64,000 bases of DNA, from the NCBI GenBank assembly GCA_012295275.1, contig CM022679.1:14632001-14696000 (forward strand), read 5' to 3'. Of the stretch, positions 3,076 to 63,672 are shown piece by piece. The notes under the pieces were generated by a model. That model ran no database searches, had not been told where the DNA came from, and saw only the letters and a program-made list of their open reading frames with translations. This DNA is from Chrysomallon squamiferum (taxonomy: Eukaryota > Animalia > Mollusca). The translations under genes and the position numbers were made by a program. The stretch's first letter is position 1; each line of letters begins with the position of its first letter.

Positions 3076-3113
<38 letters not shown>

Positions 3114-9147: not shown

Positions 9148-9196
<49 letters not shown>

Positions 9197-11543: not shown

Positions 11544-11574
<31 letters not shown>

Positions 11575-12032
11575 CATCTACTATCCTTAATAATTTCTTA
11601 TCTAAGCACATTTAGTATTATTTCATTAGTTAAGACAAAACTGTTACCATAGAATATTATTATAATTTGTTCTGAAGTACTGAGACAAAGATTCTGAACT
11701 GTACTAGTAAAAAATATAATTCAGTATTAAGAACATTACAGAAACTCATTATATGAATATATTAATATGAACACTGAATGTGATAGCCCTTTATTTATAA
11801 AGACATTAAAATATTAATAATAATAATAATAATAATGAAGGTAAAAAAGGAAGAAAGAAGAGAAATCTACAATGTGTTAGTTGTCTGTTTTTAATCATTA
11901 GATTTATCAATCAACAAAATATACAGTTTGCAGTATGCTTTATAGTGGTGCTTCAGTTTAATATATGTGTAATAAATAATCTGTATTTTAGTTTATTAGC
12001 ATATATTTATTAGGATTTTTTAATTATGTATT

Positions 12033-12117
<85 letters not shown>

Positions 12118-12919: not shown

Positions 12920-13231
12920 TTCTGCTCACGTTCTTCACCCAACTTCCACTCAAACAAACCGGCAACGGGCAGACGACGCTTCTATAGTGAATCAAATTTA
13001 TCGTCTAAATGCTGCAGTAAAATTTTACTGTCGTGATAAACATATTTGCTTAAGATTTTAGAACTTAAACGTCACTTATTATGTTATTTCAAATTAAATT
13101 TGATCATCTTGTTAGTAGCAATAGTTATAACATAAAGGTTAAACGTCTCGTCTATATATATTTGATTGGTTTTCGGTTTGTACTATTACTATGAGAAGTG
13201 CGTAACTCAAAACTAAGAAACCAGTTTCAAA
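12920..13231. promoter_or_regulatory. Bidirectional promoter region between MTHFD2 and RUFY
   Basis: Divergent start codons separated by only 312 bp. Locally CpG-richer. ATTGG (CCAAT) near 13164-13168, and YY1-like CAAAATGGC overlapping the RUFY ATG. Confidence 0.65.
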
Positions 13232-16200: not shown

Positions 16201-16640
16201 TCTGTTGATGGGGACTGGCTGTGTCTGCGTGAACTTAGAGATGTTCAGCTAGAACGCAATGAGGATGAGATGATCACATCTATTGATGATGGTATGTTTT
16301 GTGTTGGGTCATGGTGACACTCATTAATATGTAATCTGTGCAACTGTCTGCTATCTATTCATGTATTTTTTTGTGTATATTTACTTCTCTTTTATTTTCT
16401 GCTTTCAATATGAATATTCCTTCATTGTCAAGTATAAGATCTATGTTTTAAATTTAATTCCTGAATAAATTAGATGCAGCAGATGAAATTTTAGAAATAC
16501 TAACAACAATGGTTATGTCACTTAGTTTATAAGCAGTATAACTATTATGCTGTGTGAATTCTGACCTTTAATTATTGCAGATATAAATTAGTAGGTTTAC
16601 TTATATGTTTAGGCTCATGCTATACTTTGTTTTCCCTTGT

Positions 16641-16673
<33 letters not shown>

Positions 16674-17614
16674 TCTTTACACCCTGCTGGATTCTTATTT
16701 AGTCTGTCTGTCTTTCTGCATGAATGTCTGCCTGCCATAATAATAATTTGACATTTTGTGTTTTGTATAATACAGAACCAGGTGTTTTAGCAATAGTTAT
16801 AATATATGTCCCTTGGCACTGACAATTCTTTTCATAATAATAATTGTATTATTTCACCTGATTGAATGTTCCAGCAGTCAGTCAGTCAGTCTGTCTTTCT
16901 GCCCATCTGTTTTACCTGACAGCTTTTAACAATAAGAAGTAAAGGTCAAACGTTTCTCTATAAATAATGATATCATTTGTTATTAAGTGCAATGATGATC
17001 AGAATTTTCAGTTTAAAAGTATAAATTTATTTCTAAGGAGTGAAATAAATTAGTATTTGTATCAGGTAGATAGATATCTATATTTAGTATACTTGGAGAA
17101 TTATAAGGTAGTAACAGTTAAACAAAATACACAATGTTTGTACATGTGTGGGTGTGTGAGTGAGAGAGAGAGAGAGAGAAAGAGAAATAAAAATAAAATT
17201 TTCCAAAAGACTGCTGGTCTTGTTTCACATCCATTTCATTTTTATTTTTTTATTTTTTCTATTTATCTCAGGCCCTGGGCATATTTATTATCCTATGTTT
17301 TTCTAATGTTTTTTGCACAGTTTATTATTAAAATTTTTCTTTAATAATTATTTTAATGTGCCTAGCATTGTACATGTTATATGTGTACATTGTAAATGAT
17401 ATTATGACTATTACCTATGACTGCCTTTGCTTAAGCTATGAGTCACTTCATGGATAAATACTTCAGTGATTCATTTTCTTAAATCCATATTATTGTTTAT
17501 AGAGCCTGGGAAAATAACCTGCTTGATCTGTTTTTAGATTCTGTTTTGTTAATGATGTAAACATACATACATACATACATAATCTGCACATTCACTCATA
17601 CATGTATACAAAGT

Positions 17615-17648
<34 letters not shown>

Positions 17649-18313
17649 GCATGAACACTCATATACACTAACAAATTTCCATGCTTCGGTTATACACTGA
17701 ACATAAATATACAACAGAAGACAAATTCATTAGACTTCTAATATAATAAATATGCCAACATTAAATAAATATTCTTAGTTTCCACATCCTGGTTGCATTT
17801 TCATTTAGTTAAAAACCCACACTACTTGGTATACGTTATTTTAAATAACACTCCATACCCCAGTATTTCTATATCATGTGGTTTGAACTCTGTTGTAGAT
17901 GGTGCAAACTGATTTCTTTGATCTGTTAAAGAGTAAGTTAGCCATGTGTGTGTATTTTGAAGATTTTAAGTAGATAGAGGTAGGAAAACCAGAAGTGGCC
18001 ACCTGCTGATAAGTCCTGATTGGCAGTAAAAACTGCTTACCAGATTTCTTTTTAGTCCAGAGAGAGATGCTTCATATCTTCATCTTTTAAACAGGAAGGT
18101 GGTTATTTATGATAGCCTCAAATACAAGGTTATCTGGAAAAAAAGATATGTTCAGTTTTTATATCCTTATATAATAAATGTTGTAATGTAATAATACTAT
18201 ATGTCATTTTTATTTTTAATGTAATAAAAATAAGAAGAAGAAGAAGAAGAAGAAAAAAAAAAAGAAAAAGAATAAGAATAAGAATAAGAATAAGAATAAT
18301 GATAATGATAATG

Positions 18314-18352
<39 letters not shown>

Positions 18353-19789
18353 CCTCAAAACTAGATATGATAATCATTACCACAGCAGATTAATATGATT
18401 TCTAATACTGGATAGCCATTATTATAATAAACATATTAATTTTTGCAGTATATTACAAAATATTTTGGTTCCTCAGTCCCTCACTTTCTCTCTATCTCTA
18501 TTTCTCTTCTCTTCCCTCCTTTCTCTTTCCATCTGCCCTTTTCCTGTCTCAGTCTCCCTTTTTCCTCTCTCTCCTTTTCCCTCTCTTTTCACTCTTTCTA
18601 TCTTTCTCTCTCTGTCTCTCTTCTTTAATTTTGTTGACCAAACCAAATTTTATTTATTGCAATAATGTAAAATGTTAAAATATTTCAAAGTGTTTGAATC
18701 TTTTACTGTATTTTGAATACCTTAATTTAATCATATTAATAATTTCATTTGATGGTTTCTGTTAGAAAAACAGAGCTTTGCAGTTTGCTGGTTACAACAC
18801 TGGTGTGATGCATGGCAGATTACAAGATCAAAACTCCTCAGTGTTCATCTTTACCATTTTTGATTCCAAAAATTAACAAAATAATATTTTTTATTTAAAT
18901 ATTCTATTTTTCTTACATTTTCATAGTCAGTATCTCTACGGATATATTATTATTATCTGGTGAATATTTAAATAAATATTTCTACTAATATTATTGTTAT
19001 TATCTATAGAATATTCATATAAATATTTCTGTTCATATTATTATTGATGTTTTCTGAATATTTAAATAAATATTTCTACTAATATTATTGTTATTTTCTA
19101 TAGAATATTTATATAAATATTTCTGTTCATATTATTACTGATCTTTTCTGAATATTTCTATCTTATACTAAGTTTTTACTCATTATTTTCCAGGACAAGA
19201 TCCAAAAATAATAGAGAGGGCGAATCTTCTGAACGTAGCTAAGCTGATTATTAAAGAACTGATAGACTCATCGCTGGCACACGGCCGCATGCTTGATGAT
19301 GACCACGTCCCACTACAACAGTTTTTTGTCGTTCTGGAACACATCCTTCGACACGGATTGCGACGTGAGATTTATTTAAATTATACATATCTTAATTTTT
19401 CGTTATTTCCACGTTTTAACAATGTATATTGTAGTAGTTTAACATATTCAAGAATAAATTTCTCTCTTTTTTTTCATTTCTTTAAAAAACGAACGTCAGT
19501 GGGTTTATCATCTTTGATTCCTAATTTATTGAAGAAAAACAAATGGTTCAGAAAAGATTTAACAGAACTACCTTTTACAATAAAAAAAAAAATCAAATAT
19601 ATTTAATAATAAAAACTAAAGTATTTCTTTTGTTAAATTTAAAAATGAAAATTATGATACATCACATTCCAATTAAAAGTGCTGTTTTTTTTTCTTTTTC
19701 TTTTTTTTTAAATTTTATTTAGTATACATACATTAATATTTTCTTTTGGATTTTCTTCTTTTTTTAAAATTTAGAGATCTACACACATT

Positions 19790-19832
<43 letters not shown>

Positions 19833-22470
19833 TAAATGTCAATTAAGAGTACAATAAATACCAATTTACATACTTCACATAATTTAAATTCCTCTGCATA
19901 TTAAATATATTTAACAAATATTCAGCATTTCAACATAGATTTACTTCAGCAAATTTTTAAATAATGATCCCTATTTATTTACTACTGTATCCAACACCAT
20001 TTTAGTACAAGTTTCGTGATTTGCTTGTCAAAATAATTATTGATCTCAGTCTTCTTATAAAATATTTCTTTAGCTACAGCTTTATTGAAGTAGAGTTTTT
20101 GAACACACTTTTGAGTGAAAAATGTTTTGTTGACAGCTAAAAAGGGACTGCTGCGAGACAGAAGAGAATTCTGGGTTGTGTTGGAAAACATTGAAAAGTT
20201 TGCACCAGAAGCTGCTGAAATAACCACCAGCGTCAGAGATATGCCACATGTGAAGTATGTTTGATAATAACAATAATAATAACAATAATAATAATAATAA
20301 CTGTAGTAGTAGTAGTAATAGTAGTAGATTTATTAGTAGTTACAGTAGTAGGATAGTACTAGTAGTAAATAGTAGTAGTAATAAAAAAAAAAAAAAGTAG
20401 TAGTAGTAATAATAATAATAATAATAGTAATAGTAGTGGTATTAGTAGTAGTAGTAGTAGTAGTAGAAATTGTAGTATTATTGTAATAATAGTGGTAGCT
20501 GTAGCAGTAGTAATAGTAACTATAATATTAATATTAATAGCATCAGAAGTAGTAGTAATAATAATAATATTAATAGCAGCTGGAGTAATAGAAGTTATAG
20601 CAATAGTAATAATAGTAGTAGTAGTTGTGATGGTTGTTGTAGTCGTAGGTTTAGGCCTATAGATCTTACCTGTTTTTACACCATGAAAAAATAATAATGA
20701 TCTGTTTTCTTTTAGTCATTAATGAAATGTTAATTTTTTATTTCATTTTTAATTTATCATTGCCCAGTTTATATTCAACATTTTTTTTTTTTTTTTTTTT
20801 TTTTTTCAAATTGTTTGAATTTTCTGTTTTCCTGATTTCAAACTATACCAACCAAATGTCACATGATCAATAAGCAAAGGGAGAAGTCTGATACTAACTA
20901 CAAGTTATGTAGCACAGAACCATTTAACTGTAAAAATGTACTTACTAAGCATACACATGAGTCATTCATTTCTGTGATATAAAATGAGGAATATTTGTTA
21001 TGTGCAGTGAATGTAACAAATTCTGAGTAACAGTTAATCTTTAGCATAACAGGCAAAATTAAAAATACTTAACTGGCTGAAACCATTAAGTTGCATTTTA
21101 TTTATTTATACAATATGCAGTTTAAAAATATAATAACAACAACAACAATAATAATAGAAGTAAATTGAATATGCAGATTTTAATAGCTGATAATTTGTTT
21201 ATACAATATGCTGTTTTGTATTTATTAAAAAGAAAACTGTTAATATATCTTCTTTTTTTAATTAAATAGTTATTTAAGTATGCATATGTTATTTGTTCAG
21301 TTTTTTATTTTATTTACTGTTTTAAGTGTGTTTATGCATTTTTTTTATTATTTTATATTTTTTTTAACACTTTTTATTCATCAGTTATTTTGGACATTGT
21401 TAAATTAATAAAACAAACAAAAACAATGGATATTTTATTAAAAATAAATTCATAAAAACAGTAACAATTTTTTTATTGTTATTCATTTAAACAAATACCG
21501 TTTAGAACACATCCCCAAGAAATTAAAAAAAAAAAAAAAAACGACGAAAAACAACAACTTAATTTTACAATTAATTATGTGTTTTAAATTGAAAGTAAAT
21601 TAGACTGGGAGACAAGTCTATGTTTAAAGATAAGACTTGGTCTGATGACCTTTGTGTGTAATTGGTGAAAGGAAGTGTTACAGACAGACTGCTTTGTTGA
21701 GGTGACAAACACAGAATCACTCAGTGGCAGATGTTTTTTGAAGTTCACATCTTTATCAGTTTTTTATCTTTTATTTGTTCTTTTTTTTTTTTTTATTCCT
21801 TTGTTTTTGGGAAGGGCCTGTGGTTTGCATCTACATCTGGTTATTTCGTATAGTATTTTAATTTTAATTTTTTATTACTTATTTTACATCACCATCATTT
21901 ATTTATTTTTATTTTTATTTTTGAATAAAAATCAGAAAATTAAAGTGGAAAATTGATTTCTAATTTTAAAACAATATATTAAACATCTGGGATGGTGGGG
22001 TTTTTTGGGGGGTTTTTGTTGGTTTTTTAACAGAGTTATAATGAATTTAGGTAAATGGCTTACATAAAAATTAATGGGTTCCAATTTTTGGCATGTCTAA
22101 ATAATGTGTATGTTTGTGTGTGTTGGTTATTTTGTATATGTCAGTGTGTTTATGTGTAAAGAGGCCTGTATGTGTATTATAATTATAATACAGAATATAT
22201 CAAACCATTAGTGTGTTTTGTCTTTATGAAATATACATTTACGCTAATGCATCCCACTCTTTTTAATAATTCTGATTTAATTTTAACAGCTATTTTATAT
22301 TAATTTAAATAAAAGATTAGCACTGTTTATTGTTCATTTATTTCAGAACTGCTTTAGGCAGGGCACGAGCCTGGATCCGGCTAGCTCTCATGCAAAAAAC
22401 CCTCGCAGATTACTTCAAACTGCTCATAGAGAAAAAAGATGATCTGCTCAGGTACAGTTATTTATATTTA

Positions 22471-22519
<49 letters not shown>

Positions 22520-25500
22520 TATCATCATTTTTTTTGTTATTCTCATTATTGTCATTTTACTTATTCTCATTATCATTATTATTATTATTATTTTTTATTT
22601 ATTTATTATTATTTTATTATTATTGTTATTATTAAAATTTATATTTTTAGTTGGGTAGTTTGTATTGAGTTCAGACAGTCTGTTGATGAATATTTTCTAT
22701 CAGATGATGTAAAATGTCCTGTACTTAATAGTTAAATATATATATTAACTATTATAGCAGTATCCTTAAAGGCACATTTAGTCCTTTCTGCATCTCACTT
22801 GTTTTAATAGTCAGTGTTTTTTATTTATAAATTCATTTCACCTTGAAAGTTGTAAGTTATAGGCACTCAACTAATAATATCTAAATGTTTTATTGATAAC
22901 AACCTATATTCAAATGGTTGTCTAGTTATAGTAGTGAAATACAGTGATTAAAAACAGCAAATTATCAGTGTTGAAAATATAAATATATTTCTATTCATTG
23001 AATTAAAAAATAATGTTTTAACTTTTTAAATGATATATATAACACATTTTTTCTCATTTTTATTTTATATTTTTGCAATAATATCTCATCGCATCTGTAT
23101 TGAAAGAATATACTTCACTTATCCAATTCAAAACAATTTTTAACCATTATAAATGATGAACATCCCAACTTTTTAAAAATTATTTTTTATTTTTACAGTA
23201 ATATCAAGTTAGATACATAATTAAAATGTGTTATTATTTTTTATTTATTATGAATTATAGACACTCAGTTTAGTCTGTGTATGATCAAGTTCTTATACAA
23301 GTTTATTTTTAAATATTTTAAACAATAAATTCAACAACCTTTAAAACTCTATTTTTTGCAATAAGATCAGGTCAGATTTGTAATTAAAATTTTTCATCTC
23401 ATCAAATCCATAGCTTTGTTTTAACATTTTAAATGATAAACGTAACAATATTTTAATTATTTTTATTTTATTTATTCATATATTAATATTTTTTTAGATA
23501 CTGTGGGCATAATTTATCCTCTGTGTGTCCAAGTATTTTTACAAGTATGAAATACTGGTGTATCTAAAAACTGAGTTTATTTTACAGTGAGTTTTATGAA
23601 CCTGGTGCGTTTCTGATCGAAGATGAGGGAATCGTCATTGCAGGCTTGCTTGTTGGTCTCAACGTCATTGACTGCAACTTCTGCATCAAGGGAGAAGACT
23701 TAGACCAGCCTGTAGGTATCCAACATAATAAGGAAACAAAATTAATTTTATAACTAGAATTTCAACATACTAAGAAATAACACAGCTCTTTGTTTATGTA
23801 TGTATGTATTACAGTTTATAACAAAAGTAAAATAATTTAATTCAATAGAGTAGTCATTCTTAATAGTTTTGAAAATAAAAATAGAAAATCTTAAATTCTT
23901 ATTCTTAAAAGCTTGAACATTCTTTTTATTATTTGGGTAATGTTAAATACTGAAAGAATTAAGATAAAGTGTTTTTATTTTCAGATGGGAGTTATAGATT
24001 TTAGTTTGTACCTGAAAGGTTCTTACGTAGGAGGTACTGATGAACAGGATAGGTAATATATATTAAAAATATTTAGTTTTTACCAATGAGAGCAATGGAT
24101 GACAGTTATTACATGAATTCTGTTATATTTATTGTTATTTTAAAATTAAATCATTACCCATAAAAAGCATCATGCATAGTGAATTTTTTTTAATAACCTT
24201 AAATTTAATTTAGATTTTAATTCAGCTATGTTTATTTATTTATTTATTTATTATTATTTTATTTTTATTTTTTTAATTATTCATTTTATATATTAATATA
24301 TTTTTATTTTATTTATTATTATTATTTCTTTACTTTTTTTTTTTTTTTTTTAAATTTTTTTTTTATTCTTTTGTTTTAATTATTAGTTTTATATATTTAT
24401 ACATTTTTATTTTTTTATCATTATTATTTTTTAACTTTTCTGTTATTTTAAAAAAATGTAAATATTTTATTTTATTTTTATTTCTTATTATTTTTTTATT
24501 TACTTATTTATTTATTTTATATAAAAAAAATTCTAGGCAGGAGTTTGTTTTCTCCTTGGTAAAATGATGTGTTCTGATTTGTTTGTATGTGTAATGTACC
24601 ATAAATTACCTTTTATAATAATTTTACCATTCAGCCCAGAGGGTCAGTCAAAAATGGCCACAATTCTAGATCAGAAGAATTACCTTGAAGAGCTGAACAG
24701 ACATCTGAAGTAAGAAAACAGATAAATTTAAAAATATATTTTAGTGAAAGAAATATTTTATTTTTAGTATCTATTTATTTAATATTATTAAATTATTCTA
24801 ATTTTTATTATTATTATTGTTATTACTATTATTATTATTATTACAAATTATTTGAAAAATAAGAGCTAGTTTGAAGTTTCAAATTTAATGGATTAGAGAT
24901 AAGTATAAAATGTTGAAAGGTATAATTATCACTGAAAATGTGATTTCACAGAAATGAACAAGAAAGATAACCATGGAGTACTTTGTATGTACTTCATGTT
25001 AAATCTGTTAAGTATTGTCTTCTCTCTATCACCAGTACAAAAGATAAAATAAACAGGAATCATTTCTATATTGTATTTTATTATTAAATGTTATTACTAC
25101 CTTCATTTCACAGTGCCACAGTGACCAATCTGCAACAGAAAATGGAACATCTTCAGACAACTAATGCTTTAATGAAGGAAGACCTGGCAATAGCGAAAAA
25201 CACCATTTTTATGCTCCAGGACGAAAATGCAGCTCTGAGAAATGAGAGAGACGATATCACAAAAGACCACACAAAACAGTTAGAGGTAGACTGTCAGAGA
25301 TATTTCACATTTTAATTAATAAAAATTTATTACTACACAAAACACTCAGAGATAGATTGTCAATGGAATATCATATTTAATTAATAAAATTATATTACTA
25401 CAGAAAATAGTTAGAGGTAGACTGTCAGAGATATTTCACATTTTAATTAATAAAACTATATTACTATACAAAACAGTCAGAGATAGATTGTCAGTGCACT

Positions 25501-28500
25501 GTTACATTTTAATTAATAAAACTATATTACTATACAAAACAGTCAGAGATAGATTGTTAATGGCATATTACATTTAATTAATAAAATTATATTACTACAT
25601 AAAACAGAGGTAGATTGTCAGTGGAGTATCACATTTTAATTAATAGAATCTCAATGCCATAAAAAACATTAGGGATAAATAGGTATTATTATATCCTATA
25701 TTTCTATTAATCACAAGAAAGCATTACCAGTAGATATACTTTATTTCATTATCCACATTATTTATTATTTTGATATCCTAGATGAAATTGTAATAAAGAA
25801 ACACGCTTTACTTAGGTGACAAAACAAAGCCCAAACTCAAACTATGTATTCAGTATGCTGTTTTATTTCAGGCAGCAAAAGAGGACATTGATGCTGAAAG
25901 AGAAACTTACGAAACATCTAGAGCAGGACTGGACACAATGTATGCTGAAGCCAAAAAGAAACTTGATGAGGAAACACAACTAAGACTGGTCAGTAATTAA
26001 TCTTTATTGACTTATTAGTTACCTGACTGACCGACTGGTTATCTGATCAATGGTTAGTAATTCATTTTTATTGACTTACTGGTTATGTGAATGACTCACC
26101 TTATTAAATATTGCATATATGTGAGTTTTGGAGTATAATGATGAAATGAAAATATCTATCATTCCGATATTAGTAATAATGTAGCTTTTATATGCAGCCT
26201 GTAATAGACAGGTAAGCACATAACAATGTTGTTCATGGTTAGAACTGGAAATGGCCCTGTAATTATAGTAATGGGCTAGTCAATCAACACAGAAAATTAG
26301 GATAGTTAGTGATAATAAACTGGTTGTTTTATTTGTTTTTTTTTAAATTTATTAATGAAGTCATTTAGCTTGAATTTTCTACAGACTGTGTAAGAAGATC
26401 CATTATAACCAAAACAGATGAACTATTTTCCTGACTTAAATGATTGCAGAAATTAAAATAATGTTTCTTTTTTAATTAATTTATGATTGGTTGGAATTTT
26501 GTATAGTCAATGATATTTAACAAAAAAAAAAAATTTATTTATTTATTTATTTGTTTGTTTTTACATAAACTTTATTATTATTCTTCTTAACCAGCACATT
26601 TGTTTTTCATCTTTTTTAATTCAGGATGTGGAAAGAGAACTTGAGTTACAGATCGGCATGAAGACAGAGATGGAAGTTGCTCTGAGACTGCTGGAACGGG
26701 ATATTCATGAGAAGCAGGACAACATTGTGTCACTAAGGCAACAACTGGCTGAAATCAAGACAATTAACCAAGAGATGTATCATAAACTGCAGGTTTGTGT
26801 GAATCATCTGTAGATATCAGAAATGTAATATTATAGTTCAGTTTCTCTTTAACATTCCAGTAATAAAATATGCGTAGTCTCTGAATTAATACTCATGTAA
26901 TTAATAACTCAAAGACTGAGGTAAAATTGAGATTTAATGAAAAAAATTAAAACACACAAAAAATATAATTTAAAAATATTTCACCTTTTTTCCATTGTTA
27001 AGACAAGATCAGAAGACACTATATGTAATGATCAAAAATCATTCCAGTTGTTATGGTTATTCAGTGATATAGTCAAGCGAGTTATTTCTACCTATATAAA
27101 GTTATTCAAAACCATATCTGACATGAAGTCAGCAAGTTTCATAAACTGCAGAGGCATATTGTGGTGTTTTGTGTTTGTGTATGTTTGTGTCTCTGTGTGT
27201 TTCTGTATTTACTGTGTCATCATAGATGAGTATGTTTCATATTACAAGAAACACACATTCTTGTGTATCTTCTAAACTAAGAAAAAGACCCAACTCAAAA
27301 GTATTTATTGATAAATAAAACAACATATATGTACATACATTACTGAAAACATAAATTGAAACTCACAACTGGAGAATAATCAACACAATTACTAATAGCC
27401 CTAGATGTACAAAACAAATGTTTAAAATCACAGTAACAAGTGCAATATGATACTGTCAACTGTAAGCAAAAACAACCACCAATCAGTGAATTTTATCAGT
27501 TAATTACAAAAGTTCTCTGAAGTCTGTCTGCAATTATATAGACAAGCCCTACACTATGTACAGACAAAAATCACCAAGTGGGGTATTTTGTTGTACTTCA
27601 TCAATGACCCATTATAATGTGATAACCAAGGGAAATAATAGTGTATGTATTGCAGCACTTTGAGTTGTCATTCATAAATGTGTTTGAGTTTTTGAAAGGT
27701 CCTTATTGCCAGTTTATACAATAGCTTACTCAGGACCAGAGTTCTAGTTCAAAAGGTATGGGAGTATAGGAATAAATTGTATGAAATTTATAATCTATTT
27801 AAAACATAAAATGTGTTTTTCTTTTTTAAAAATGATAACTTAACATCAAGGCAAATAGCATGTAAATATAGGGTGCCAACATATATGAACCACAATATTT
27901 TCATATTATTTTAAATCCGAGACAAATTCACAGGTCCATAAACTGAAAAATAAACTGCAATATTACACCACTTTAATAAAACTTTAGTTCTTACAGGTAT
28001 GTCTCACATTTATAGATTATCTTTGTATGTCACATATTCTAGTACTAGTTCTAGCTACATTTTTTCTGAATCCTTCAATGAAGCAGAGTTGACTACTAGA
28101 TTACAATTTGTGTACCTATAGATCTTTTTACCTCTTCCACTCCATGCTTTTGTTTGTCAGAGATGTGTAAATTCTTGTTTGTGGATCAGTTCTTAAAAAG
28201 AACCCTTGCTCTTATTCAGTAATAAGAGAATTTCAGAAATGACTTTCTTGATAATGATCTAAATTTGTTTTTTGCCTGAAATTCTGTTATTCAGAATGTC
28301 CAGTCTACAGGTACATGACAAACATTTTAAGTAAAAGAAAACAAGAATATCAAAAAATTATAACAACACCAAAATTCAAGAATTTAAAAGTTTTATTTTG
28401 TTAAAAATTGTATGAGGTTTCATTCACAGCATTTGCATCTTTCAGTTTCATGAACAATATCTGGAATATGTTTAACAACTTATTTCTATTTTTTAAGTTT

Positions 28501-29927
28501 TTATTTTCCTTCTATTATTTATTTCAGTTTCTTTATTGGAATATACAGTGGCACATTTTGGTGTTTGAAAAAATAGTTTTAACAATTGTGTTTCAAATAT
28601 TGGTAACAAAGCATACAGAATTTTAACAAGTTTATTTCATTTTTTTTTTCCCTATTCGATGATTACTTCCATCGTTTGTCATCAAACTGGCCTTCAAATT
28701 TCTTCAAGTTTTCTTCTGTGTTCTGAAATGACAGTATAAAATAAAGTGTTAAAACAAGTGATTGCATGCTCTGTTAAACACTAGTCACATTTTTTTTTCT
28801 TAATTTTATTTTTTTAAAAAAAAAAAAAAAAGAAAAATAATGTTCATTAAATATTTTATTTTAAAAAATAAATAATAAATAAATAATTTTTTAAAGAAAA
28901 AAGGATACATTTTTGTATATTTTTTTATTTTCACATTTATGGTTTTGTATTTCAAAGTTATTTTTTCACATATAAAATGTTAATGAAACATTTTTACAAA
29001 CCTCTGAGGTGTGTGGTAGAAATACTTTCTTTCCACATGTAGAGGTCAGTTTTAGGATTTCTCTCTGAAAAAACAAAACTTCACATACAGATATCTACAT
29101 CAACAAATACTTCACAGATATCTAGACTGAAAAATATCTAACATTTTTGATGTTATTAAAATTTCATGATAATTACTAATGAAAATTTAGAGAGAGAGAG
29201 AATAAAAATATTTAAAGGACATCCTTTTTATTTTATGTTTTTCTTTTAATTTTTAAAGTACTTTTTAATGTAAATAAAAAAAAAATTAAATTCATTTAGT
29301 CTTCACACAAAACAATTTCTATGTTTTATATTAATTCACTCCAGTGTTTTATTTTATAAAGTCAAACTTTCCAACCCACCGATGCCCAGAAAAAAAAAAA
29401 TAATAATAAATGAATAATTTTAATGATACTTACAACAAGAACCCTGTTAATCGTGTTTACCAGTCCCTCCACGGCTGTTCCACACTCCTCCCTCACACGT
29501 CTGTCATCCACCAGATCGACATTTCGTTTACCTCCCGCATGCCACCAGTTGCTGTAGTGATACTGGGAGCTGCACTGAGGTACAGCCAACATGAGAGCAA
29601 CCAGCAGGAAGAACCAGTTTAGATAGTGTGGATGATGCCATTTTTACTGTGTCTGTTCTAGAAATAAAAATAAATAATATATATATATTTTTTTTTTTAT
29701 AACAGCTATAAATGTTTGATCCATTTGAAATAATTAGAAAACTTCCTTTTTATATAAATTTCTATTTATTATTATTTTTTAATTTATAATATTTTTTTTT
29801 TAGTATTACTGTTATTATTTTTTTATTATTAAGTTCCTTTTTTCTTTCTGTTTAAAAAAACAAATAAAGCCAGAATTATAAAAATAATAATTTCAGATCT
29901 GATTGTGAGTTTTCGAATCATTTAGAA

Positions 29928-29973
<46 letters not shown>

Positions 29974-32900
29974 TTATTTTTTTTTTTTTTTTTTTTTACA
30001 ATTTCATTGCAAAGATTCTTTTTGGACTGTTGATTACAATGTCATATTCACTACATCATATATCAGTGTCAGAAAGTAATAATATAAAAAGTATTCTTGT
30101 TATGAAAGTAATAAATAATAATGTACCCTTTTACCATGATTTGATATCTTGAGAAACTGTACAGCATATAAACCATGTACGTTTTCTCATCATTTTTATT
30201 TAAATTAATATGTTATATGTTTGTTATTAGCAATATAAGGAACATGTGACTATTTAGTTATAAATATTTTTTTTCTGTTTTCGCTATTTTTAAAATGTTT
30301 GTTTGATTGTTTTTTATTCATTAAATGACATATGTATACTTGTTTAAAACTGAAATCTTTTTCTTGAAGTTAAAAATACTATCTTTGAAATCTAAAATTT
30401 TTAACAATGCATATTAAAACTTCTTTAGTAGAACAAAGAAAACAATGAACCAGTATCTAAATCATTAGCAAGTTGATAATATGTTTACGTTTTTGTGAAA
30501 AAATTTACCTGGAAAACACCTTTAGATTTTATCTAAAAATATATTTTTTAACTTAGCTTTTTAAAAAAGGTAACCCAAAATAATTATGTAGAATTTCTTC
30601 TAAATCTTTATTTAATGGTTTTTTTTTTTTAAATTGGTCATGTTTAGATAACTAGTATATACATGGAATTTTTTTTATCCATCTTCCAAATACAGAAAAT
30701 TTATAATTTATATAAGTTCTAAACCAAACTCAAAAAACATAAAAAAAAAAAAAGTCTTATATAAAAACTGAAAAGAAAAAAAGAGAAAAATTTGGAAAAG
30801 ATATTTTTTAAAACAAATTGTAAAAATCAATTTTAATATAATTCATAAAAGAAAACTTTCAAAAACCTTGAAAAGTAATTAACAAAAAAAGAAAAAAAGA
30901 ATTAATGATTTATTGCCAGGCCAAAAAAACAAATTTAAAATTTTTAAAAAATTAGAAAAAACTGAAAACATTATTACTCACCAGTTTGTAGTGTCTGATG
31001 GATTCACTAAGGTTTCCAGTAAAAACAATGAACACTTTGCTGATCGGCTCCTCTTTTTATACAAAAATTTTATCCGTCTGCAAAAGTTTTATTTAATGAG
31101 AAAGAAAATTCAGGAAATTACAGTGTTTTCCACCCCAAAGCTATATTCCTTTCACCTGTAAATACATTATTTGGTGCTGTTTTGCATGCCAACTGTTCCT
31201 GGACAGACTCTGGGGGCTTCCAAAGATGGATGGCATTTGACAGATGACAAGATGGAGACAGGACTGTTAAGGGTTGGAGCTAGCACCAGGTTCAATGTAA
31301 TTACAGCACAGTCCATCCCCTGGCAGATAATCTGACAAGTGTTAATAAACAGGAAAAGCACGACAACGCACAGACAGTTATTTGCACCGTTTGCGTTCGT
31401 CTGTAAAACGTATGTGTGTAGGAGTTAATCTAGAAGATTCATTATTACTTCAAAAGAAAAAAAAAAAAAAAATATTATTTTAATTTAAATTTTTTATTTA
31501 ATTAATTTTTGTTTTTTCTTTTCACCCTTGTGCAGATATAATTAGTTTGAGTTACAAAAAAGAAAGGTTTGGATAATAGGTGATCAGATTGTTTGTGGAG
31601 TTTTAGTGTATTGTTTTTAGTTTTCATTTAATTTTCCCATTAGAAATTCCTCCTCCAAGTATACTTAAAATCAGAGTATTTTGTTTTTGTTACAAAAATA
31701 TGTCCATATTAATAATAGATAATTAATTGGTGGGCGAGTTTCTGTAAATTACATTTTTTTTTGTTTTTCATTGTAATTACTAGTTTTCCATTTTGAAATT
31801 TCTTCTAAAAATATTCTTTAAGTGGTTTTTATGTTTTATGTAATGCACTGGCTAATTCTGTAGACTTAATTTTTATTTATTTTTAATTTATTATTTGTTT
31901 TATTTTTTGCTCTCTCTGGTCCCTTCGAGCTGTCATCCATTTAATCCAATGCCCTTTTATCAAAGACTGTGGTAAATTCATTCCTGTCTAGAGGAAGGTA
32001 ACTTAAAATATTTCTTTCTGCTGATTGATAAAAGAATAGGTCACATGTGGCTGTAATGAATTTCTTCTTATCATGATATATAAAAAAAAATAATTTGAAC
32101 ACTTAAACATTATTTAATATAATGAATTTCTTCTTATCACGATATAAAAAAAAAATAATTTCAACACTTAATTATTACTAACATAATGAGTTTCTTTTGA
32201 TCCTAACATACCAAAGAAATAATTTCTACATTTATTTATTATTAATATTAAAATAATGTTTGTCTTTCAACATTTAGATGTGATTTGGCTGACAAGTTTT
32301 AGCTGTCTGTATTCAGAGTTCATTCTGTTGGTTTTTCCTTCACTTGTAACTTGATTCGCAGACCCACGTGTTTCATATCAAAACTCTTTACTCTAACACT
32401 TTAAACTTCATTCATTCAGGGTCTCAGGAGTTTTTAAGGTTATTTTAAAACCAGACACAAATTATTTCACTAAGCTTATATCAGTCTGTTTATTATTCAA
32501 CGTCCTTGGTTTAAAGCTCTAGGTTTAAACAAGTCATCGATTTCTTTAATTCCGTATTTTACAGTTGGTTGTTTTGAAAGATGCAGGTTGAGGTTGATGT
32601 AGTGATTGTAAGGTTGAGGAATTACAGTTTGAGGATGTTTAGTAGAGTTTTGAAAGTGAGAAATTTAGGTTGATGTTGGTAGTGTTTGGAATGTCAGAAA
32701 TTTTGGCTGAGGGTGGTAGTGTTTTGAAGGGATTAATATGAGAGAGGTTTGGAATTTCACTAATATCACTGTTGTTTTGAACATTTGGAGGCTGAGGATG
32801 TAATTAATGTTGGAAATGTTTGAAGACGATGTCAGAAGTGTTTGGAAGGGTTGAGTTAAGGATGACAATGGTTTATGGAAATGTTGAAATAGGGGATGTC

Positions 32901-35900
32901 TCTAGGGGATTATTTGTATTTGGAAGCATGGGTGCTGAGGATGTCAGTAGTGTTTGGAAAGTTTAGAGGTTCAAGATGTCAGTTTTTGGAAGTATGTAAA
33001 TTGAAAATGTCAACAGTTTGAAGGGTTGATTTTAATGATGTCAGTAGTATTTGGAAGAATTCAGCTTGAGGATAAGAAGGCAGTGGTGTTTGGGTATTAG
33101 AAGATGATGTTTGAGTTTAAGAGGGATGTTCAGTTGTTGTTTTGATTTAAATTAAGAGAAGAATTGTTTTTATGTATTTGTTACAGACAGGTTATGTTTA
33201 AATACTCAGACACAGACACAAAAACATACACTCACTCACATACACACTACATGTTCTTTAACTGTGTACTTTCTTTATGCATCTAGCAATAATAAAAGTG
33301 AAAAACTGCCCACTCATTGGCTTTATTGAAGTATCATACAGGATAACAGCTTTTGTTAAATTTTACAAAAGTCACTGTGTATATTTAAACTGAGTAAAAC
33401 ACAGAGTACTGAGAAACATTACAGTATCATTTTTTTTTCTTTCTAATGTAGTTATTTAAATACTGTAAAATAAATATAGTTATTTGAATGCAATACTGAA
33501 ACAGTTTTTGTAAATTCTGTATTATGTGCAAGAAGCTGCAGTGTGTAATTTTGTGTTACAGAGAAACAGAACTGTTTTATCTGTCTAGTTTTAATTAGGT
33601 TTAATTCTGTTACATTATGTGTTTGTTTCAGAGTTGTGAAGGTACAGTGAAGCACAAAACAGATATGGTTGGAAAGCTGGAAGAGAAGACAAACCAACTC
33701 GTTCACACACTGAAAGAAATGGAGAAGAGGTGAGTGCATTTTTAATCTTTACCGTTCAGCTGGCTAAGTGACTTGTTAAATGACAATGCAAATGTATACC
33801 AGCAAGAACATTCCCTTGGTGAGCAGTGCAGGGCATGGCTACAGTTGTTTCAAACTAATGTTCAGATTTTGTTTTTTCACCCAAGGCTAACAGATTCAGT
33901 TGTTAAAATGTCTGGGAAAAGCAAGCACCAAGTTTTATCCCATTAGTAGCTGCTTGTCTGTCAGAATTGTTGAGAAAGAATGATCATCTTGACAGCATCT
34001 TGTGTTAAAAAAACCTAAGAAGCAAGCAGTGCCATCCCTTCAGACGTCTGCCTTTCAAAATTGTTTAAGCAAAACATACAACAGAGAGAGTGTTCAAATA
34101 ATATGATTTTTGGTTAAAACAGTCAATAAGAATGAAGCACCAGGTTTCAAAACTGTCAAACCTTGAGTTTCTTGTGTAGCAAAATTATAATATGAAAGAT
34201 ATGAAAGAATGTTCAAGAAACAAAATATTTTGTTAAAAAATCTATAAGAAGCAAGCACCAGCTTTCGAATCTGTCATTCCTTCATTCACTCGCTTGCCAA
34301 AATAGCTTAAACCAAACCAAACAGTATCGTGAATCGACAGCATCTTATGTTAGAAAATAAGTCTAGTCACATAATGAGATTTTCTGTGAAAAATATCTGT
34401 ATGAAGCAGGCATCATGTTTCAAAATAGTCATCCCTTCAGTGGCTTGCCTGTCAAAGTTGTTTAATCAAAACAAGCATCGGAGATAAAGGTCAACTAATA
34501 AGCTTTTTTTTTTGTTAAAAAATGTCTATAAAAAGCAAGTATTGAGTTTCAGAACTGTTATCCCTTCAGTCACTTGCCTTTTGAAATTGTTTAATCAAAA
34601 CTAACAAGAGAGAATGGTCAGCTGAGAAACTGCGCAATCAGTCATTGTTGGTGGATGCTCTGGGCCTGTGACTGGGTATTCCATTATTACTGATGACGTA
34701 AGCGACACAAGAAAGACAAAAATTTCATCTTGCAGTCAAATAAATCTCTAAGCTGATGAAGTATTTTTCTCATTATCCATTACGGTTTTTGGTGTTGCTG
34801 AACTTCTTGCTAATGCTTTTCAAGCAGTGCAGTTTGTTGGTTTAATGATAATAATGAAATATTTTAGTTAAGGCTTTGTGGACATAAGGGCAGTTGTCAT
34901 ACAATTACATCTTTTATTTTTATGGTGTAAGTTCTCCTCATTCATCACCTAAACCTTTTCTTTCTTCCAGGGCACTGTGATAGTAATTTTCTTTAACTTT
35001 TATTTGTTATTTTTATAAATTTATTGCCTTTTTAATGAATAATAATAAGCATTAACAGAATAAAAATATTTAATAAATAGATGTCACCAAAATGAAAAAC
35101 ATTTTATACATTTAAGGAGATGGACATTTATGCTATTCCTTTTCATAACTTTTTTTTAATAAATGATAATTGTCATAAAGATGATAATTATTTAATTATA
35201 AAACTGAAAGATATATATAAAGTTTCAGTGATCAAATTCAATCAAATAAAATAGGTTACAAAATGCCATTGTTTTTACTGACATTATTAACCTGAAATGA
35301 ACTGACAGAAATTAAAAATAGGTTTATTTTTTCTGATTAAATTTAAATAAAGAGTCAGAAATAATTAATAAAAATTATAATAATAATCATTGTTTTATCA
35401 CACTGACATTATTAACTTGAAATCAACTGAGAGAAATTCAGAAGAACCTTTCTTAATGATTTAAATTTAATTTAGAGTCAGAAATAATTAATAAGAATTA
35501 CAATACTCAAATTATCATTTTATCTCATTAACATTATTATTAACTTGAAAAGAATTGATAGAAATTAGTAACAATTTGTTGTTGTTGTTTTTTTAAAATT
35601 AATTTTAATAATATATCACAAATAACTAATATGAATTACAGTATTTAAATATCATCATTATAATTTTATCATCACTAACATTAGATCATTTCACCTGTGT
35701 ACTGACATTTACCTGGTTTACCTGTACTTATTCGTTGTTGTGTTTACCTTGGTGTATTATGATTTGTTTTATTATTTAGTTTGCACTGGTTTGTTTGTAG
35801 CCGCGCAGTCCATTCATTTTTGTATCATTTTTCTTTTGCATGTTCTGTTCCACCCGCTCTTGGCCTCTTGTTGCTTGCTGGTGTAGATTAAAACAATGCG

Positions 35901-36242
35901 AGTCTGATAAACTAGCAGCTGAAGAAACAGCTCGAAAACTTGGCCAAATAATTGCAGAAAAAGATAACAAGCGGTAAGCGAAATTACTATTATTTTTCTT
36001 TTTTAAAGCATGAGTCAAAATTTGGTTAAGAAGTTTTTTTAGTTTTCTGGTAATAGGAATTTAAAAAAATGAAAAAAATAAAAGAATGAATGTAACTCAG
36101 AATTCACTTACCTGATATTTGGAGTTGATTTCTAACAGTTTGGATAAGCTTAAATATTTTCAGATTATTAAAAAAAATTTCAAAAATATAACTTACATTT
36201 AAATTTATAAGATTTCTAGTTTGCGTTTTGTGTCCCAGAATG

Positions 36243-36276
<34 letters not shown>

Positions 36277-39208
36277 AAAAGCAAAATTTATAAAATAAAT
36301 CAATCTTTCAAGATAAAAGATTAATTTATAAAATTTCTGAAAATAAAAATAGATTTGCAGTTCTAAATGCACTCCAAAATTCATTTGTTAATTTGTTTTT
36401 ATATTCAACTGACATTATTTTAAGTTTTTATTTAGTTATTTTTTATCTTGCAGTTATTTTAGTTTTTATTGTTCTGTGTTTCAAAATAGTCTTTATCATT
36501 TAACCATTGTCTATGCACATTTGTGATCATTATAATTAGTTTTTTTAATTTTTGCATTTTGGTTTTTCATATTTCATTAAACAGGTAAGCCAGAAATAAT
36601 AAACCACAATCAATAACATTTGTTAAATAAATAAATAAATAAATAAATAAAGCAGCAGAAATATATAGATTACATATTAAGAGATAATATTTATTTATAT
36701 ATTTCTCTATGCAAAAATATATATAAAACATAAGTTTGTAAGGGCCATTTGTTGCTGTCCCAGAGTGAACACAATAAATAAACTGTATTTAATGTACATA
36801 AAGAGCCATGTTGGAGACTGATCTGCAGATAGAAGCGAGAGTGGAGAACGACATTGCAGAAAGGTTTGGAAGAGGAGAAACTCAGGGGAAGTGAAATCCT
36901 TCTGGAGCTGCAGCAAGCTAAAGAACTTCAGAAGGTAAACCATTGTTTGTTTTAGTCAAGATTATTTCCAGTTTTTATAAAAATAATCTATCTTAGTGAG
37001 TGATGACAGCAGCCAAGTGTTGAGAGGACAAAGTCTGCAAGGCTTGAAGAGCTAACGATGTACTGTTTGTGTGAAAACACATACAATTATTTCTGTTAGT
37101 TGAAATAGAAGAACAGTAATCTGGGTCATTGGTTACAGAGATGGTTTGAGATTTAATAGATACAAGACACATGTTTTTTCTTTGATTAGTTCCTAGTCCA
37201 CTGACTGATTAATTAAAAGCTTGTAGTTTATTCTCTCCTGTCACTGGGAAGGTACATATTAAGGATGCATTGTTGCAAATCAGTATAAACAGCTCATACT
37301 GTGATGGCAGATGTTTCCTCTTAAAAAATTATTATTATTATTATTATTATTTTTATAAAGAAACAATGTGAAGGAATCATTTTCAAAAGCCTTTGGTAAT
37401 TTTGGAAATTATGTGGTTTTGTTAAATAGTTTATGATATTAACAAATTACATTGTTTGGTTAAATTAATGTTAGACAGTTATAAGATTCTGTAGTTTTGT
37501 TGTGTTTGTTTATGATAAATGATATGATTTTCTTTCAGAGTTATAATGAGTTAACCAGAAAACATGAAATGCTCAATCGTACTTGTGAGGAACAAGAGCA
37601 GGCATTAGCAGAAATAGGCTCACACCTCAGCGAGTGAGTATTTTTCATTGTCAGTAAGTTCACACCTTACTATTTTTCATTGTCAGTTATTTCTCACCTT
37701 CATATTTTTCATTGCCAGTAAATTCACACAGTATTTGTCATTGTCCACAAGTTCTCACCTTCATATTTTTCATTGTCAGTAAGTTCATACTTTTGCAGTT
37801 TTCATTGTCAGTATGTTCACATATTATTTTTCATTGTCAGTATGTTCACATATTATTTTTCATTGTCAGCAAGTCCCATCTTCATATTTTTTATTGTCAG
37901 TAAGTTCATACACTACTTTTCGTTGTCAGTAAGTTCACACAGTATTTTTCATTGTCAGTAAGTTCACTGTCACTAAGTTCACACCTTATATTTCATTTTA
38001 ATGGATATTTTTTTTTGTCAGCAAAACACTACAATGCTTACAGTTTAATGAGTATTTTCAGTAACAAATACAAATTTATAATTGCCATATAAAAGTACAT
38101 GTTGGTAATTATAAAAGTGTTGGTTGGTAATTGCTATAAAAGTACTTGCTGGTGATTGTCATAATAGTAGACGTTGATTACAATAAATGTGTATATTGGT
38201 AACTGTCTGAAAAGCACAGGTTGGTAATTATCATAAAAAGTCCAACTCAATACAATAATGTTTTTCTTTTCAAATTGATTAGCACTTCTGTTTTTTGGAA
38301 TGTTTTTTTTTTTTTTACTATTTACATCATCATACTTAATGAGGGAGTATATAGAATCTGGATTGTTTGGTTCACATCATGTACAGATTTTTCATTATTA
38401 TTTGAAAGGTTTTTATTTTTTATTTTTTTTTTTTTTTTATTATTAACTAGCCCTGAATTAAAAATGACAGGGATTTATAGCATAGTCTTACAGATGTTGT
38501 TATTTTTCTCTTCAGCTCCAAGTTGAAAGTTGAAGACATGAGGGAAGCGACTATGCAGTTGAAAGAGGCCCAGTGGGAGAGTGACGAGGCAATAAAACAA
38601 TGTAAACAGTGCAATAAAGATTTCTCTATTGCAAGGAGAAAGGTAATCTTGTCAGTGTTCATGTATCTGCCACTCAGTCAGTGACTTTAATTCAGTTTTC
38701 AAAGTTTGTGTTATGTGGTTTCTAAGGGTAGATCCATTTAACTGTTCATTTGCTGCTAAGAAAAAAATTAACATGTAACTGCACAGGAGGTTTTCTAATT
38801 CCTTATTTGTTTGTGATGTGATGCCATTTAATAAAATTACATTCATTTTATGATTAATTTCATTAACATTTCAGATTTCTATCAAAAAAAAAAATATATA
38901 TAATAATAATAATAATAATAAATAATAATAATAATAATAAAATAAAATAATAAAATAATAAAATTAAAATTGAATAATAATTAATAATAATAATAATAAT
39001 TAATTAAGAGATTATAAACATAAATAAATAAAAAACCCAATTAAATAATTAGAATTTTATTTTATTTCAGCATCACTGTAGGTTCTGTGGAGGTATTTTC
39101 TGCAATGAATGCTCTGACAACAAAATGCCTCTGCCGTCTTCATCTAAGCCTGAACGGGTCTGTGATAACTGTCATACACTTTTACTAAACAGATACTCTG
39201 CCACGTAA
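13232..39208 (+). CDS. RUFY2: RUN and FYVE domain-containing protein (RUFY1/2/3 family), 16 coding exons, ~660 aa after correcting one apparent +1 indel
   Basis: Exons: 13232-13421, 19194-19364 ([28 protein letters not shown]), 20137-20254, 22347-22451 ([14 protein letters not shown]), 23588-23711 ([12 protein letters not shown]), 23985-24052, 24635-24709 ([15 protein letters not shown]), 25114-25285, 25872-25988, 26625-26792, 33632-33729, 35887-35973, 36804-36934 (one extra base near 36833-36835), 37539-37633, 38516-38642, 39071-39208. FYVE motif RRKHHCRFCG..C..C..RVCDNC spans the last two exons. GT-AG and phases are consistent except for the exon-13 indel. Confidence 0.93.
16162..16291 (+). 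CDS. RUFY2: Alternative first coding exon (1b) of the RUFY gene, RUFY3-like N-terminus
   Basis: gccATGG start; [43 protein letters not shown] then G|gtatgt. It ends in phase 1 like exon 1a, so it splices in frame to exon 2 (19194). The motif matches the recalled vertebrate RUFY3 N-terminal ETIYLC.FRVS.DGEWLCLREL. Confidence 0.85.
18232..18352. repeat. Compound (AAG)n/(AAGAAT)n/(GATAAT)n/(AAT)n simple repeat
   Basis: Directly visible. Confidence 0.9.
18961..19158. repeat. ~94-bp tandem duplication just upstream of RUFY exon 2
   Basis: TGAATATTTAAATAAATATTTCTACTAATATTATTGTT.. at 18961 and again at ~19055, with few mismatches. Confidence 0.85.
20266..20645. repeat. Degenerate (AAT)n/(AGT)n trinucleotide tract
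   Basis: Directly visible, begins just after RUFY exon 3. Confidence 0.85.
25271..25646 (+). repeat. ~65-bp tandem repeat (~6 copies) overlapping the RUFY exon 8 donor
   Basis: Unit ACAAAACAGTTAGAGGTAGACTGTCAGAGATATTTCACATTTTAATTAATAAAA..TATTACTA repeated with variants. Confidence 0.85.
28663..29641 (-). CDS. GnRH/corazonin-family neuropeptide precursor (~109 aa), nested antisense in RUFY intron 10; apparent +1 indel in the signal peptide
   Basis: Coding exons: 29434-29641 (exon starts at acceptor 29657; aaaaATGG), 29002-29064 and 28663-28722. Corrected translation: MASSTLSK(L)[16 protein letters not shown]|[84 protein letters not shown]. The layout (signal peptide, Gln-initiated peptide, Gly-Lys-Arg, two-Cys associated peptide with I.R.L..EI....TC) is typical of molluscan GnRH/CRZ precursors. 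Both introns GT-AG, phase 0. Confidence 0.85.
30982..31029 (-). other. Probable non-coding first exon of the GnRH/CRZ-like gene
   Basis: Strong donor CTG|GTGAGT at 30982/30981. The exon begins at the Inr-like TCATTG (~31029). The next minus-strand acceptor used is tttctag at 29658. Confidence 0.6.
31026..31061 (-). promoter_or_regulatory. TATA box plus initiator of the nested neuropeptide gene
   Basis: Minus-strand TATAAAAAG at 31061-31053 and Inr-like TCATTG with +1 at ~31029, i.e. canonical ~-32 spacing. Confidence 0.6.
32570..33120. repeat. Degenerate G/T-skewed minisatellite (~30-35 bp unit)
   Basis: Recurring GTTTGGAAG..GTTGAGGATGTCAGTAGT-like units with strong strand skew. Confidence 0.6.
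33900..34625. repeat. Degenerate ~100-130-bp tandem repeat in RUFY intron 11
   Basis: Recurring AAGAAGCAAGCACCAG..TGTCATCCCTTCAG..GCCT..CAAAATTGTTTAA.CAAAAC blocks, about 5-6 copies. Confidence 0.6.
35270..35650. repeat. Degenerate ~125-bp tandem repeat (~3 copies)
   Basis: Recurring CTGACATTATTAAC.TGAAAT.AACTGA.AGAAATT and AGAGTCAGAAATAATTAATA blocks. Confidence 0.6.
37190..37321 (-). mobile_element. Degraded interspersed (SINE-like) repeat, inverted copy
   Basis: Reverse complement reads AGAGGAAACATCTGCCATC...TTTGCAACAATGCATCCTT...ACCTTCCCAG, similar to 46629-46697. Confidence 0.4.
37638..37995 (+). repeat. ~29-31-bp minisatellite (~12 copies) directly after the RUFY exon 14 donor
   Basis: Unit TATTTTTCATTGTCAGTAAGTTCACACCT and variants. 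Confidence 0.9.
38085..38242 (+). repeat. ~25-bp minisatellite, copy block 1
   Basis: ATAAAAGTACA.GTTGGTAATTG units; same family as 39790-40210. Confidence 0.7.
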
Positions 39209-45475: not shown

Positions 45476-45516
45476 GCTCAGTCATAGAGAAGTCAGGCCT
45501 GTTTGTCTAGAGAAAA

Positions 45517-52640: not shown

Positions 52641-63672
<11,032 letters not shown>

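What the first reader, a model, noticed from the sequence alone, without database searches (positions are those of the whole stretch)
29524..29565. Atypical mature peptide [17 protein letters not shown]: GnRH/CRZ residues on AKH-type spacing
Seen: CAG TAT CAC TAC AGC AAC TGG TGG CAT GCG GGA GGT AAA CGA = [11 protein letters not shown] + GKR, an 11-mer. Known: molluscan GnRH/CRZ is pQNYHFSNGW.. (Trp at position 9), while AKH-type peptides (e.g. Aplysia pQIHFSPDWGT-amide) have aromatic4-Ser5-Trp8. This peptide lacks Asn2, has Tyr for Phe and Trp for the usually conserved Gly, so it has Tyr4-Ser5-Trp8 spacing with CRZ-like residues. Inference: a divergent paralog or lineage-specific ligand that may cross receptor classes (CRZR vs AKHR/GnRHR).
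Basis: partly seen in the sequence, partly recalled or inferred. Interest (0 to 1): 0.78.

Follow-up and report, generated by a model that had tools for sequence, protein, structure and literature searches.

The report
Divergent snail corazonin-type hormone gene
A snail, likely a deep-sea vent species, has a small hormone gene at the same spot inside a RUFY gene where a likely bivalve keeps its ordinary corazonin/GnRH-like gene, so this is likely the usual hormone with an unusual predicted peptide rather than an extra one.

Summary
The codons are real, on the minus strand. Short-read contigs of three runs from two studies give the same 11-mer plus GKR, so it is not an assembly error. The window does carry one extra base in the signal-peptide region, absent from 2 of 2 spanning contigs.

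The peptide belongs to a predicted 109-residue, three-coding-exon precursor nested antisense in a RUFY intron. A metagenome contig carrying a canonical molluscan GnRH/corazonin (CRZ) gene shows the same nesting before the same two RUFY exons. No second copy lies in the window. It is therefore most likely this gastropod's own CRZ orthologue, not an extra paralogue or an AKH.

Of the three oddities, Tyr for Phe is known (scallop, triton snail) and loss of residue 2 has a precedent in a solenogaster entry. Gly-to-Trp was not seen in any CRZ examined. The peptide meets 4 of 6 AKH hallmarks, so cross-activation is possible but untested. Expression, splicing and close relatives are untested. The scan noted CRZ-in-RUFY nesting before, in a probable annelid.

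The parts
29434..29641 (-). Coding exon 1: ATG at 29641, 25-residue signal peptide (window has one extra base at 29609), mature peptide, GKR, first 30 residues of the associated peptide with Cys 1; phase-0 GTAAGT donor follows
   Evidence: a splice-acceptor-like site lies just upstream of the ATG, as in L003 and L004
29533..29565 (-). Predicted mature peptide [17 protein letters not shown] (calculated MH+ 1430.60)
   Evidence: sequence; read support; signal cleavage before Gln fits the -3/-1 rule best (Cys, Ser; Pro at -5) and mass computed; processing inferred
29524..29532 (-). Gly-Lys-Arg amidation and dibasic cleavage signal
29002..29064 (-). Predicted coding exon 2 (21 residues, Cys 2), phase 0 on both sides
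   Evidence: splice consensus and match in size, phase and Cys to exon 2 of L003 and L004; not confirmed by RNA
28663..28722 (-). Predicted coding exon 3 (19 residues and stop, ending KRWK); AATAAA at 28636 and further down
   Evidence: the Lottia precursor ends RKWKK; not confirmed by RNA
26793..33631 (+). Host intron of the RUFY gene (phase 0 at both ends) that contains the three coding exons on the opposite strand
   Evidence: flanking splice sites; no RUFY-like exon of L003 maps between; that the two flanking exons are consecutive is inferred
13236..39205 (+). Host gene, RUFY type (RUN domain exons, coiled coil, FYVE exon); ends approximate
   Evidence: Pfam RUN at 22321-22470 (E 6e-9) and FYVE at 39053-39205 (E 5.5e-14); exons at 33.6 kb and 35.9 kb match L003

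Best explanation
This is likely the snail's own corazonin-type (molluscan 'GnRH/CRZ') hormone gene, lying antisense in a RUFY intron and predicted to yield an unusually divergent 11-residue amidated peptide that would signal through the snail's corazonin receptor. Shown: the codons, their support in reads, the single precursor motif in the window, and the same nesting and exon plan as a canonical CRZ gene in L003. Inferred: three-exon splicing, signal cleavage before Gln, KR cleavage, amidation from the last Gly, pyroglutamate formation, secretion from ganglion neurons, and Gq/calcium signalling through a CRZ-type receptor that tolerates or has co-evolved with the shorter N-terminus and the extra Trp. 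The AKH-like spacing would be a by-product of losing one codon, not descent from AKH.
For: Position: L003 has a canonical precursor (QSYHFSNGWNP-GKR) on the minus strand, followed by plus-strand exons matching window RUFY exons 33605-33730 and 35801-35974 (62% and 61% identity, E 5e-13 and 4e-11). Exon plan: acceptor just before the ATG, phase-0 intron 15-16 residues after Cys 1, a 21-22 residue exon 2 with Cys 2, and a short exon 3 (L004); introns 369 and 279 bp against 391 (L003) and 527/261 (L004). Peptide: 8 identities with one gap to the Haliotis laevigata and Charonia peptides, against 4 without gaps to Aplysia AKH. C-terminus resembles Lottia CRZ. No second precursor motif in the window. 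Mollusc AKH and CRZ receptors are selective.
Against: Positional orthology rests on 1 contig; L004 is too short to reach RUFY, and L003 lacks the upstream RUFY exon. Similarity of the associated peptide to L003 and L004 is weak (shuffles reaching the score: 390, 15, 144, 47 and 231 of 2000). The Cys pair and a phase-0 intron are also features of AKH genes. No genome is held, so a canonical copy elsewhere is not excluded. An octopus analogue lacking residues 2-3 did not activate the octopus receptor, so the N-terminus matters. No spliced RNA was seen.
Confidence: 0.78

Rival explanations
1. Same gene and ancestry, but the peptide has gained activity on the AKH/GnRH-type receptor as well as, or instead of, the CRZ receptor.
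For: Meets 4 of the 6 AKH hallmarks of PMC5024129 (pQ1, aromatic 2, YS 4-5, W8). Oyster AKHR1 is activated by insect ACPs as well as by its own AKH. Cross-activation exists elsewhere: amphioxus CRZ receptors respond to GnRH and a Platynereis GnRH-like peptide activates CRZ receptors at high concentration.
Against: Fails AKH length (11 residues) and the W/WG/WGX-amide end; all mollusc AKHs seen have Trp-Gly, here Trp-His. Chain length governs selectivity in mosquito receptors (abstract). Oyster CRZ does not activate AKHR1 and Aplysia AKH does not bind the Aplysia CRZ-type receptor.
Confidence: 0.15
2. An extra, lineage-specific paralogue, with a canonical CRZ gene elsewhere in the genome.
For: Two departures from an otherwise strict mollusc consensus could reflect relaxed selection after duplication; CRZ duplications are reported in annelids. 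The rest of the genome could not be searched.
Against: This copy holds the position shared with the canonical gene of L003; no tandem copy in the 64 kb.
Confidence: 0.08
3. The gene is the AKH/GnRH-type orthologue that happens to resemble CRZ.
For: Trp at 8 and YS at 4-5; Atlas features give AKH 0.91 against CRZ 0.90; AKH precursors have a similar Cys pair.
Against: The canonical CRZ exon of L003 gets the same Atlas ranking (AKH 0.91, CRZ 0.90), so the score does not discriminate. Position, two predicted coding introns (oyster AKH has one) and residue identity favour CRZ.
Confidence: 0.03
4. A decaying or null gene: the frameshift is a real allele and the odd residues reflect loss of constraint.
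For: The window has an out-of-frame ATG; no spliced transcript and no database protein were found.
Against: 2 of 2 spanning contigs, from two studies, lack the extra base; the only substitution among runs is synonymous; splice sites, Cys pair, GKR and a G+C-rich exon are intact.
Confidence: 0.04

Closest known systems
Molluscan GnRH/corazonin (invGnRH/CRZ), e.g. Haliotis laevigata pQNYHFSNGWHA-amide and Charonia pQNYHYSNGWHP-amide (PMC7697785 Table 1)
   Same: Signal peptide, single N-terminal pQ peptide, amidation and basic site, associated peptide with two Cys; 8 identical residues to each of the two named peptides; exon plan and RUFY nesting as in L003.
   Different: No residue between Gln and Tyr, Trp in place of Gly, so the conserved Trp is at 8 and not 9; ends in Gly-amide like cephalopod forms.
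Solenogaster entry neomeniomorphaSP.92386, QYHFSNGWDA-GKKR (PMC6425005 supplement file 3)
   Same: Also lacks residue 2, so it has the same aromatic4-Ser5-Trp8 spacing in a mollusc CRZ-type precursor.
   Different: Keeps Phe and Gly; predicted 10-mer; a transcriptome prediction, not a tested peptide.
Molluscan AKH (GnRH-type), e.g. Aplysia pQIHFSPDWGT-amide and oyster pQVSFSTNWGS-amide
   Same: pQ1, aromatic4-Ser5, Trp8; Cys pair in the precursor; a phase-0 intron.
   Different: 10 residues, Trp-Gly-X-amide end, aliphatic residue 2, shorter precursor (80 residues in Aplysia), one coding intron in oyster; only 3-4 identities.
Brachiopod, nemertean and phoronid corazonins (PMC8557429 supplement)
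   Same: YHYSN core in 2 brachiopod entries; the 'Gly' site varies (G 5, S 4, D 3, N 1 of 13 entries).
   Different: All 13 keep Trp at 9; none has Trp at the Gly site.

Membership tests
Molluscan GnRH/CRZ (corazonin type) | Precursor: signal peptide, then one Gln-initial peptide, then Gly plus basic residues, then an associated peptide | tested here: met
   signal peptide judged by hydropathy and the -3/-1 rule only
Molluscan GnRH/CRZ (corazonin type) | Core aromatic-His-[Phe/Tyr]-Ser-Asn-x-Trp | tested here: met
Molluscan GnRH/CRZ (corazonin type) | Usual consensus: residue at position 2, Gly8, Trp9 | tested here: not met
   11 of 11 table rows have both; 14 of 15 mollusc species in the supplement have residue 2 and 15 of 15 have Gly. 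A consensus with known exceptions, not a strict definition.
Molluscan GnRH/CRZ (corazonin type) | Orthologous gene position and exon plan | tested here: met
   same antisense nesting before the same two RUFY exons in L003 (one contig only); same intron phases and exon sizes as L003 and L004
Molluscan GnRH/CRZ (corazonin type) | Two Cys about 24-26 residues apart in the associated peptide | tested here: met
   25 here if exons 1-2 splice as predicted, 26 in L003/L004, 24 in Lottia and Octopus; also seen in AKH precursors, so not diagnostic
Molluscan GnRH/CRZ (corazonin type) | Activates a CRZ-type receptor | not testable with these tools
   needs a cell assay
True AKH (hallmarks of PMC5024129) | Length 8-10 residues | tested here: not met
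   11 residues predicted
True AKH (hallmarks of PMC5024129) | pQ1; aliphatic or aromatic 2; FS/FT/YS at 4-5; W8 | tested here: met
   Q1, Y2, Y4-S5, W8
True AKH (hallmarks of PMC5024129) | W-amide, WG-amide or WGX-amide C-terminus | tested here: not met
   ends WHAG-amide
True AKH (hallmarks of PMC5024129) | Activates an AKH-type receptor | not testable with these tools
   needs a cell assay

The most novel reading that the evidence does not exclude
In this snail lineage the corazonin gene has converged on AKH spacing by losing one codon and gaining a Trp, and its peptide now activates the AKH/GnRH-type receptor as well as its own: a natural ligand that bridges two signalling systems separate since the bilaterian ancestor, giving a two-change experiment on what keeps them apart.
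Probability: 0.15. Interest if true: 0.65.

Novelty: new variant of a known kind. Interest (0 to 1): 0.3.

Why it matters
Mollusc corazonin-type peptides are very uniform, so a natural form lacking residue 2 and carrying Trp at the Gly site is a ready-made probe of receptor specificity and ligand-receptor co-evolution in the GnRH superfamily. The RUFY intron also gives a positional marker for telling CRZ from AKH/GnRH genes when peptides diverge; no paper naming it was found. The extra base in the window probably hides the gene from annotation. Otherwise it is the expected hormone gene at the expected place.

Tried and rejected
Protein searches with exon 1 found nothing: near lengths, 2 candidates and none at E<=10; longer lengths, 293 candidates and none; 1.84 billion representatives, 0 at E<=0.001; Pfam, 0 families. 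These are weak negatives for a short divergent precursor. Whether Gigantopelta or other relatives share the peptide is unknown.

No own genome is held. RNA run X5 gives one contig that runs into intron 1 with no joint, so it shows neither expression nor splicing. X7 laid nothing.

Of 15 metagenome motif matches, 13 lack precursor context and were dropped as chance. ESM Atlas places the exon in the GnRH superfamily (0.93) but ranks the canonical control the same way. No conserved non-coding DNA was found between the host intron and L003/L004 (best E 0.02).

Intron number was rejected as a class marker because PMC4923880 and PMC10321317 state opposite counts for deuterostome GnRH and CRZ genes. 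A Ser-extended 12-mer (cut one residue earlier) would restore canonical spacing without a deletion (alignment), but it puts Gln at -3, which the recalled -3/-1 rule disfavours; it is not excluded. No fold or complex prediction was run.

Full report
Observation. The stated codons lie on the minus strand: 29565-29533 encode [11 protein letters not shown] and 29532-29524 encode GKR. They sit in a G+C-rich island (up to 56%) in a window of about 20-37% G+C. A loose superfamily motif occurs once in the window and 0 times in 200 local shuffles. Of 4 runs laid, 3 had contigs over the peptide (X1, X2, X5; two studies). The only listed substitution is synonymous. The peptide is therefore not a sequencing error. 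One of these runs may be the source of the window, so I count the support as at least one independent study.

A flaw in the window. The ATG at 29641 is one base out of frame with the hydrophobic stretch and the peptide. Both contigs spanning the place (X1, X2) lack one base at 29609. Without it the frame is open and gives a 25-residue signal peptide. The best cut by the -3/-1 rule (recalled) is directly before Gln. The extra base is most likely an assembly error, which may be why no database protein was found; that link is inference.

Gene anatomy. Exon 1 ends at 29434 before GTAAGT. Two further exons are predicted from splice consensus: 29064-29002 (21 residues, with the second Cys) and 28722-28663 (19 residues and stop). 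All junctions are phase 0, giving 109 residues. No RNA confirms the joints. The one contig from an RNA library runs into intron 1. The three exons lie antisense within 26793-33631, between two phase-0 splice sites of a RUFY-type gene with RUN and FYVE exons.

Organism. Exons of the neighbouring MTHFD2-like gene are 81% and 83% identical to the Gigantopelta protein XP_041363622.1 in the two longest matches, against 55-58% for the gastropod Batillaria. The window is thus likely a gastropod close to Gigantopelta but not that species. That Gigantopelta is a peltospirid vent snail is recalled. The species was not determined.

Orthology. A motif scan of metagenome contigs returned 15 loci, of which 2 (L003, L004) are true precursors with the canonical QSYHFSNGWNP-GKR. 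They resemble the Dreissena entry of PMC6425005 and are likely bivalve. They share the window's plan: an acceptor just before the ATG, a phase-0 intron 15 residues after Cys 1 (16 here), a 22-residue exon 2 with Cys 2 (21 here), and in L004 a short third exon. L003 also carries, on the opposite strand and upstream of the precursor, two exons matching window RUFY exons 33605-33730 and 35801-35974 (E 5e-13, 4e-11), in the same order. This is the strongest evidence that the window's gene is the positional orthologue of the canonical molluscan CRZ gene. Limits: it is one contig, it lacks the upstream RUFY exon, and similarity of the associated peptides is weak (15 to 390 of 2000 shuffles reach the scores). 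No second precursor motif occurs in the window, but the rest of the genome is unavailable. An earlier AI note of this scan (e1-7908766) reports the same nesting in a probable annelid. I read it after and did not check its DNA.

How unusual is the peptide. In Table 1 of PMC7697785, 11 of 11 mollusc rows have a residue 2 and Gly8-Trp9, and 2 of 11 have Tyr for Phe. In parts 104-105 of 400 of supplement file 3 of PMC6425005 (file cut in storage), I count 15 mollusc species: 15 keep SNGW and 1, a solenogaster, lacks residue 2. SNWW had 0 hits in that file. Among 13 phoronid, brachiopod and nemertean CRZ entries of PMC8557429 the Gly site holds G 5, S 4, D 3, N 1 and never W, and all keep Trp9. So Tyr for Phe is ordinary, loss of residue 2 has a mollusc precedent, and Gly-to-Trp is the one change without precedent in what I saw. 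The 11-mer is in no paper of the library. Partial motifs gave 4 unrelated papers. Chrysomallon with gonadotropin gave 0 papers and Gigantopelta with gonadotropin 4 listings on other peptides (listings only). None of the 20 listed of 56 papers mentions RUFY. Subscription journals are not searched, and no supplement of PMC10730642 could be read.

AKH comparison. The peptide meets 4 of the 6 AKH hallmarks of PMC5024129 and fails length and the Trp-Gly end; by that paper's descriptive terms it would count as 'proto-AKH'. It has 4 identities to Aplysia AKH against 8 to two gastropod CRZs. Cys pair and one phase-0 intron are common to both gene types, and Atlas scores do not separate them.

Mechanism. 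By established processing rules the precursor would give [17 protein letters not shown]. Mollusc CRZ-type receptors signal through IP3/calcium, and the peptides affect locomotion, heart, feeding and egg laying. Aplysia AKH does not displace the CRZ-type ligand from its receptor, and oyster CRZ does not activate AKHR1. An octopus analogue lacking Asn2-Tyr3 was inactive, so the snail's receptor has likely adjusted to, or tolerates, the loss of one residue. Cross-activation stays possible because oyster AKHR1 accepts insect ACPs. I put it at about 15%.

Papers seen. PMC7697785: outline, sections 17 and 25. PMC8113230: part 1 of 5 and its supplement. PMC4923880: part 1 of 3. PMC5024129: parts 1, 2, 3 and 6 of 6. 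PMC10321317, PMC4146582, PMC4964986 and bioRxiv 2020.03.01.971697: passages. PMC8557429: passages, supplement search and supplement part 10 of 387. PMC6425005: supplement searches and two parts. PMC6838013: abstract and outline.

Verdict. A real, likely functional, divergent corazonin-type orthologue: a new variant of a known kind, interest 0.3.

Noticed in passing
window 29609: One extra base in the signal-peptide region relative to both spanning short-read contigs; probable assembly error that breaks the gene model.
   Followed up: yes
window 2887-3118 and 22353-22597: A stray copy of one RUFY RUN-domain exon with its downstream intron flank (84% over 247 bases) lies about 19.5 kb upstream of the original.
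   Followed up: partly
window 44327-45481 (-): A 385-residue uninterrupted ORF for a Cys-loop ligand-gated ion channel (Pfam LBD E 8e-35, membrane region E 1e-12) between RUFY and the SIS-domain gene; apparently intronless.
   Followed up: no
window about 31100-31420: G+C-rich island inside the host intron, 1.5 kb upstream of the precursor ATG, with a possible minus-strand donor; might be its untranslated first exon or promoter.
   Followed up: partly
L003 1412-782 (-) with 6555-8154 (+): Canonical CRZ gene of a likely bivalve nested antisense ahead of the same RUFY exons, suggesting an old lophotrochozoan arrangement.
   Followed up: partly
window 5469-12922 (-) and about 52600-63200 (-): MTHFD2-like gene and a SIS-domain gene that looks like GFAT (name recalled) flank the RUFY locus.
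   Followed up: partly
window 29565-29533: The SNWW stretch also occurs in Ciona GnRH-X, listed as a partial antagonist in PMC7697785 Table 1; probably convergence.
   Followed up: no
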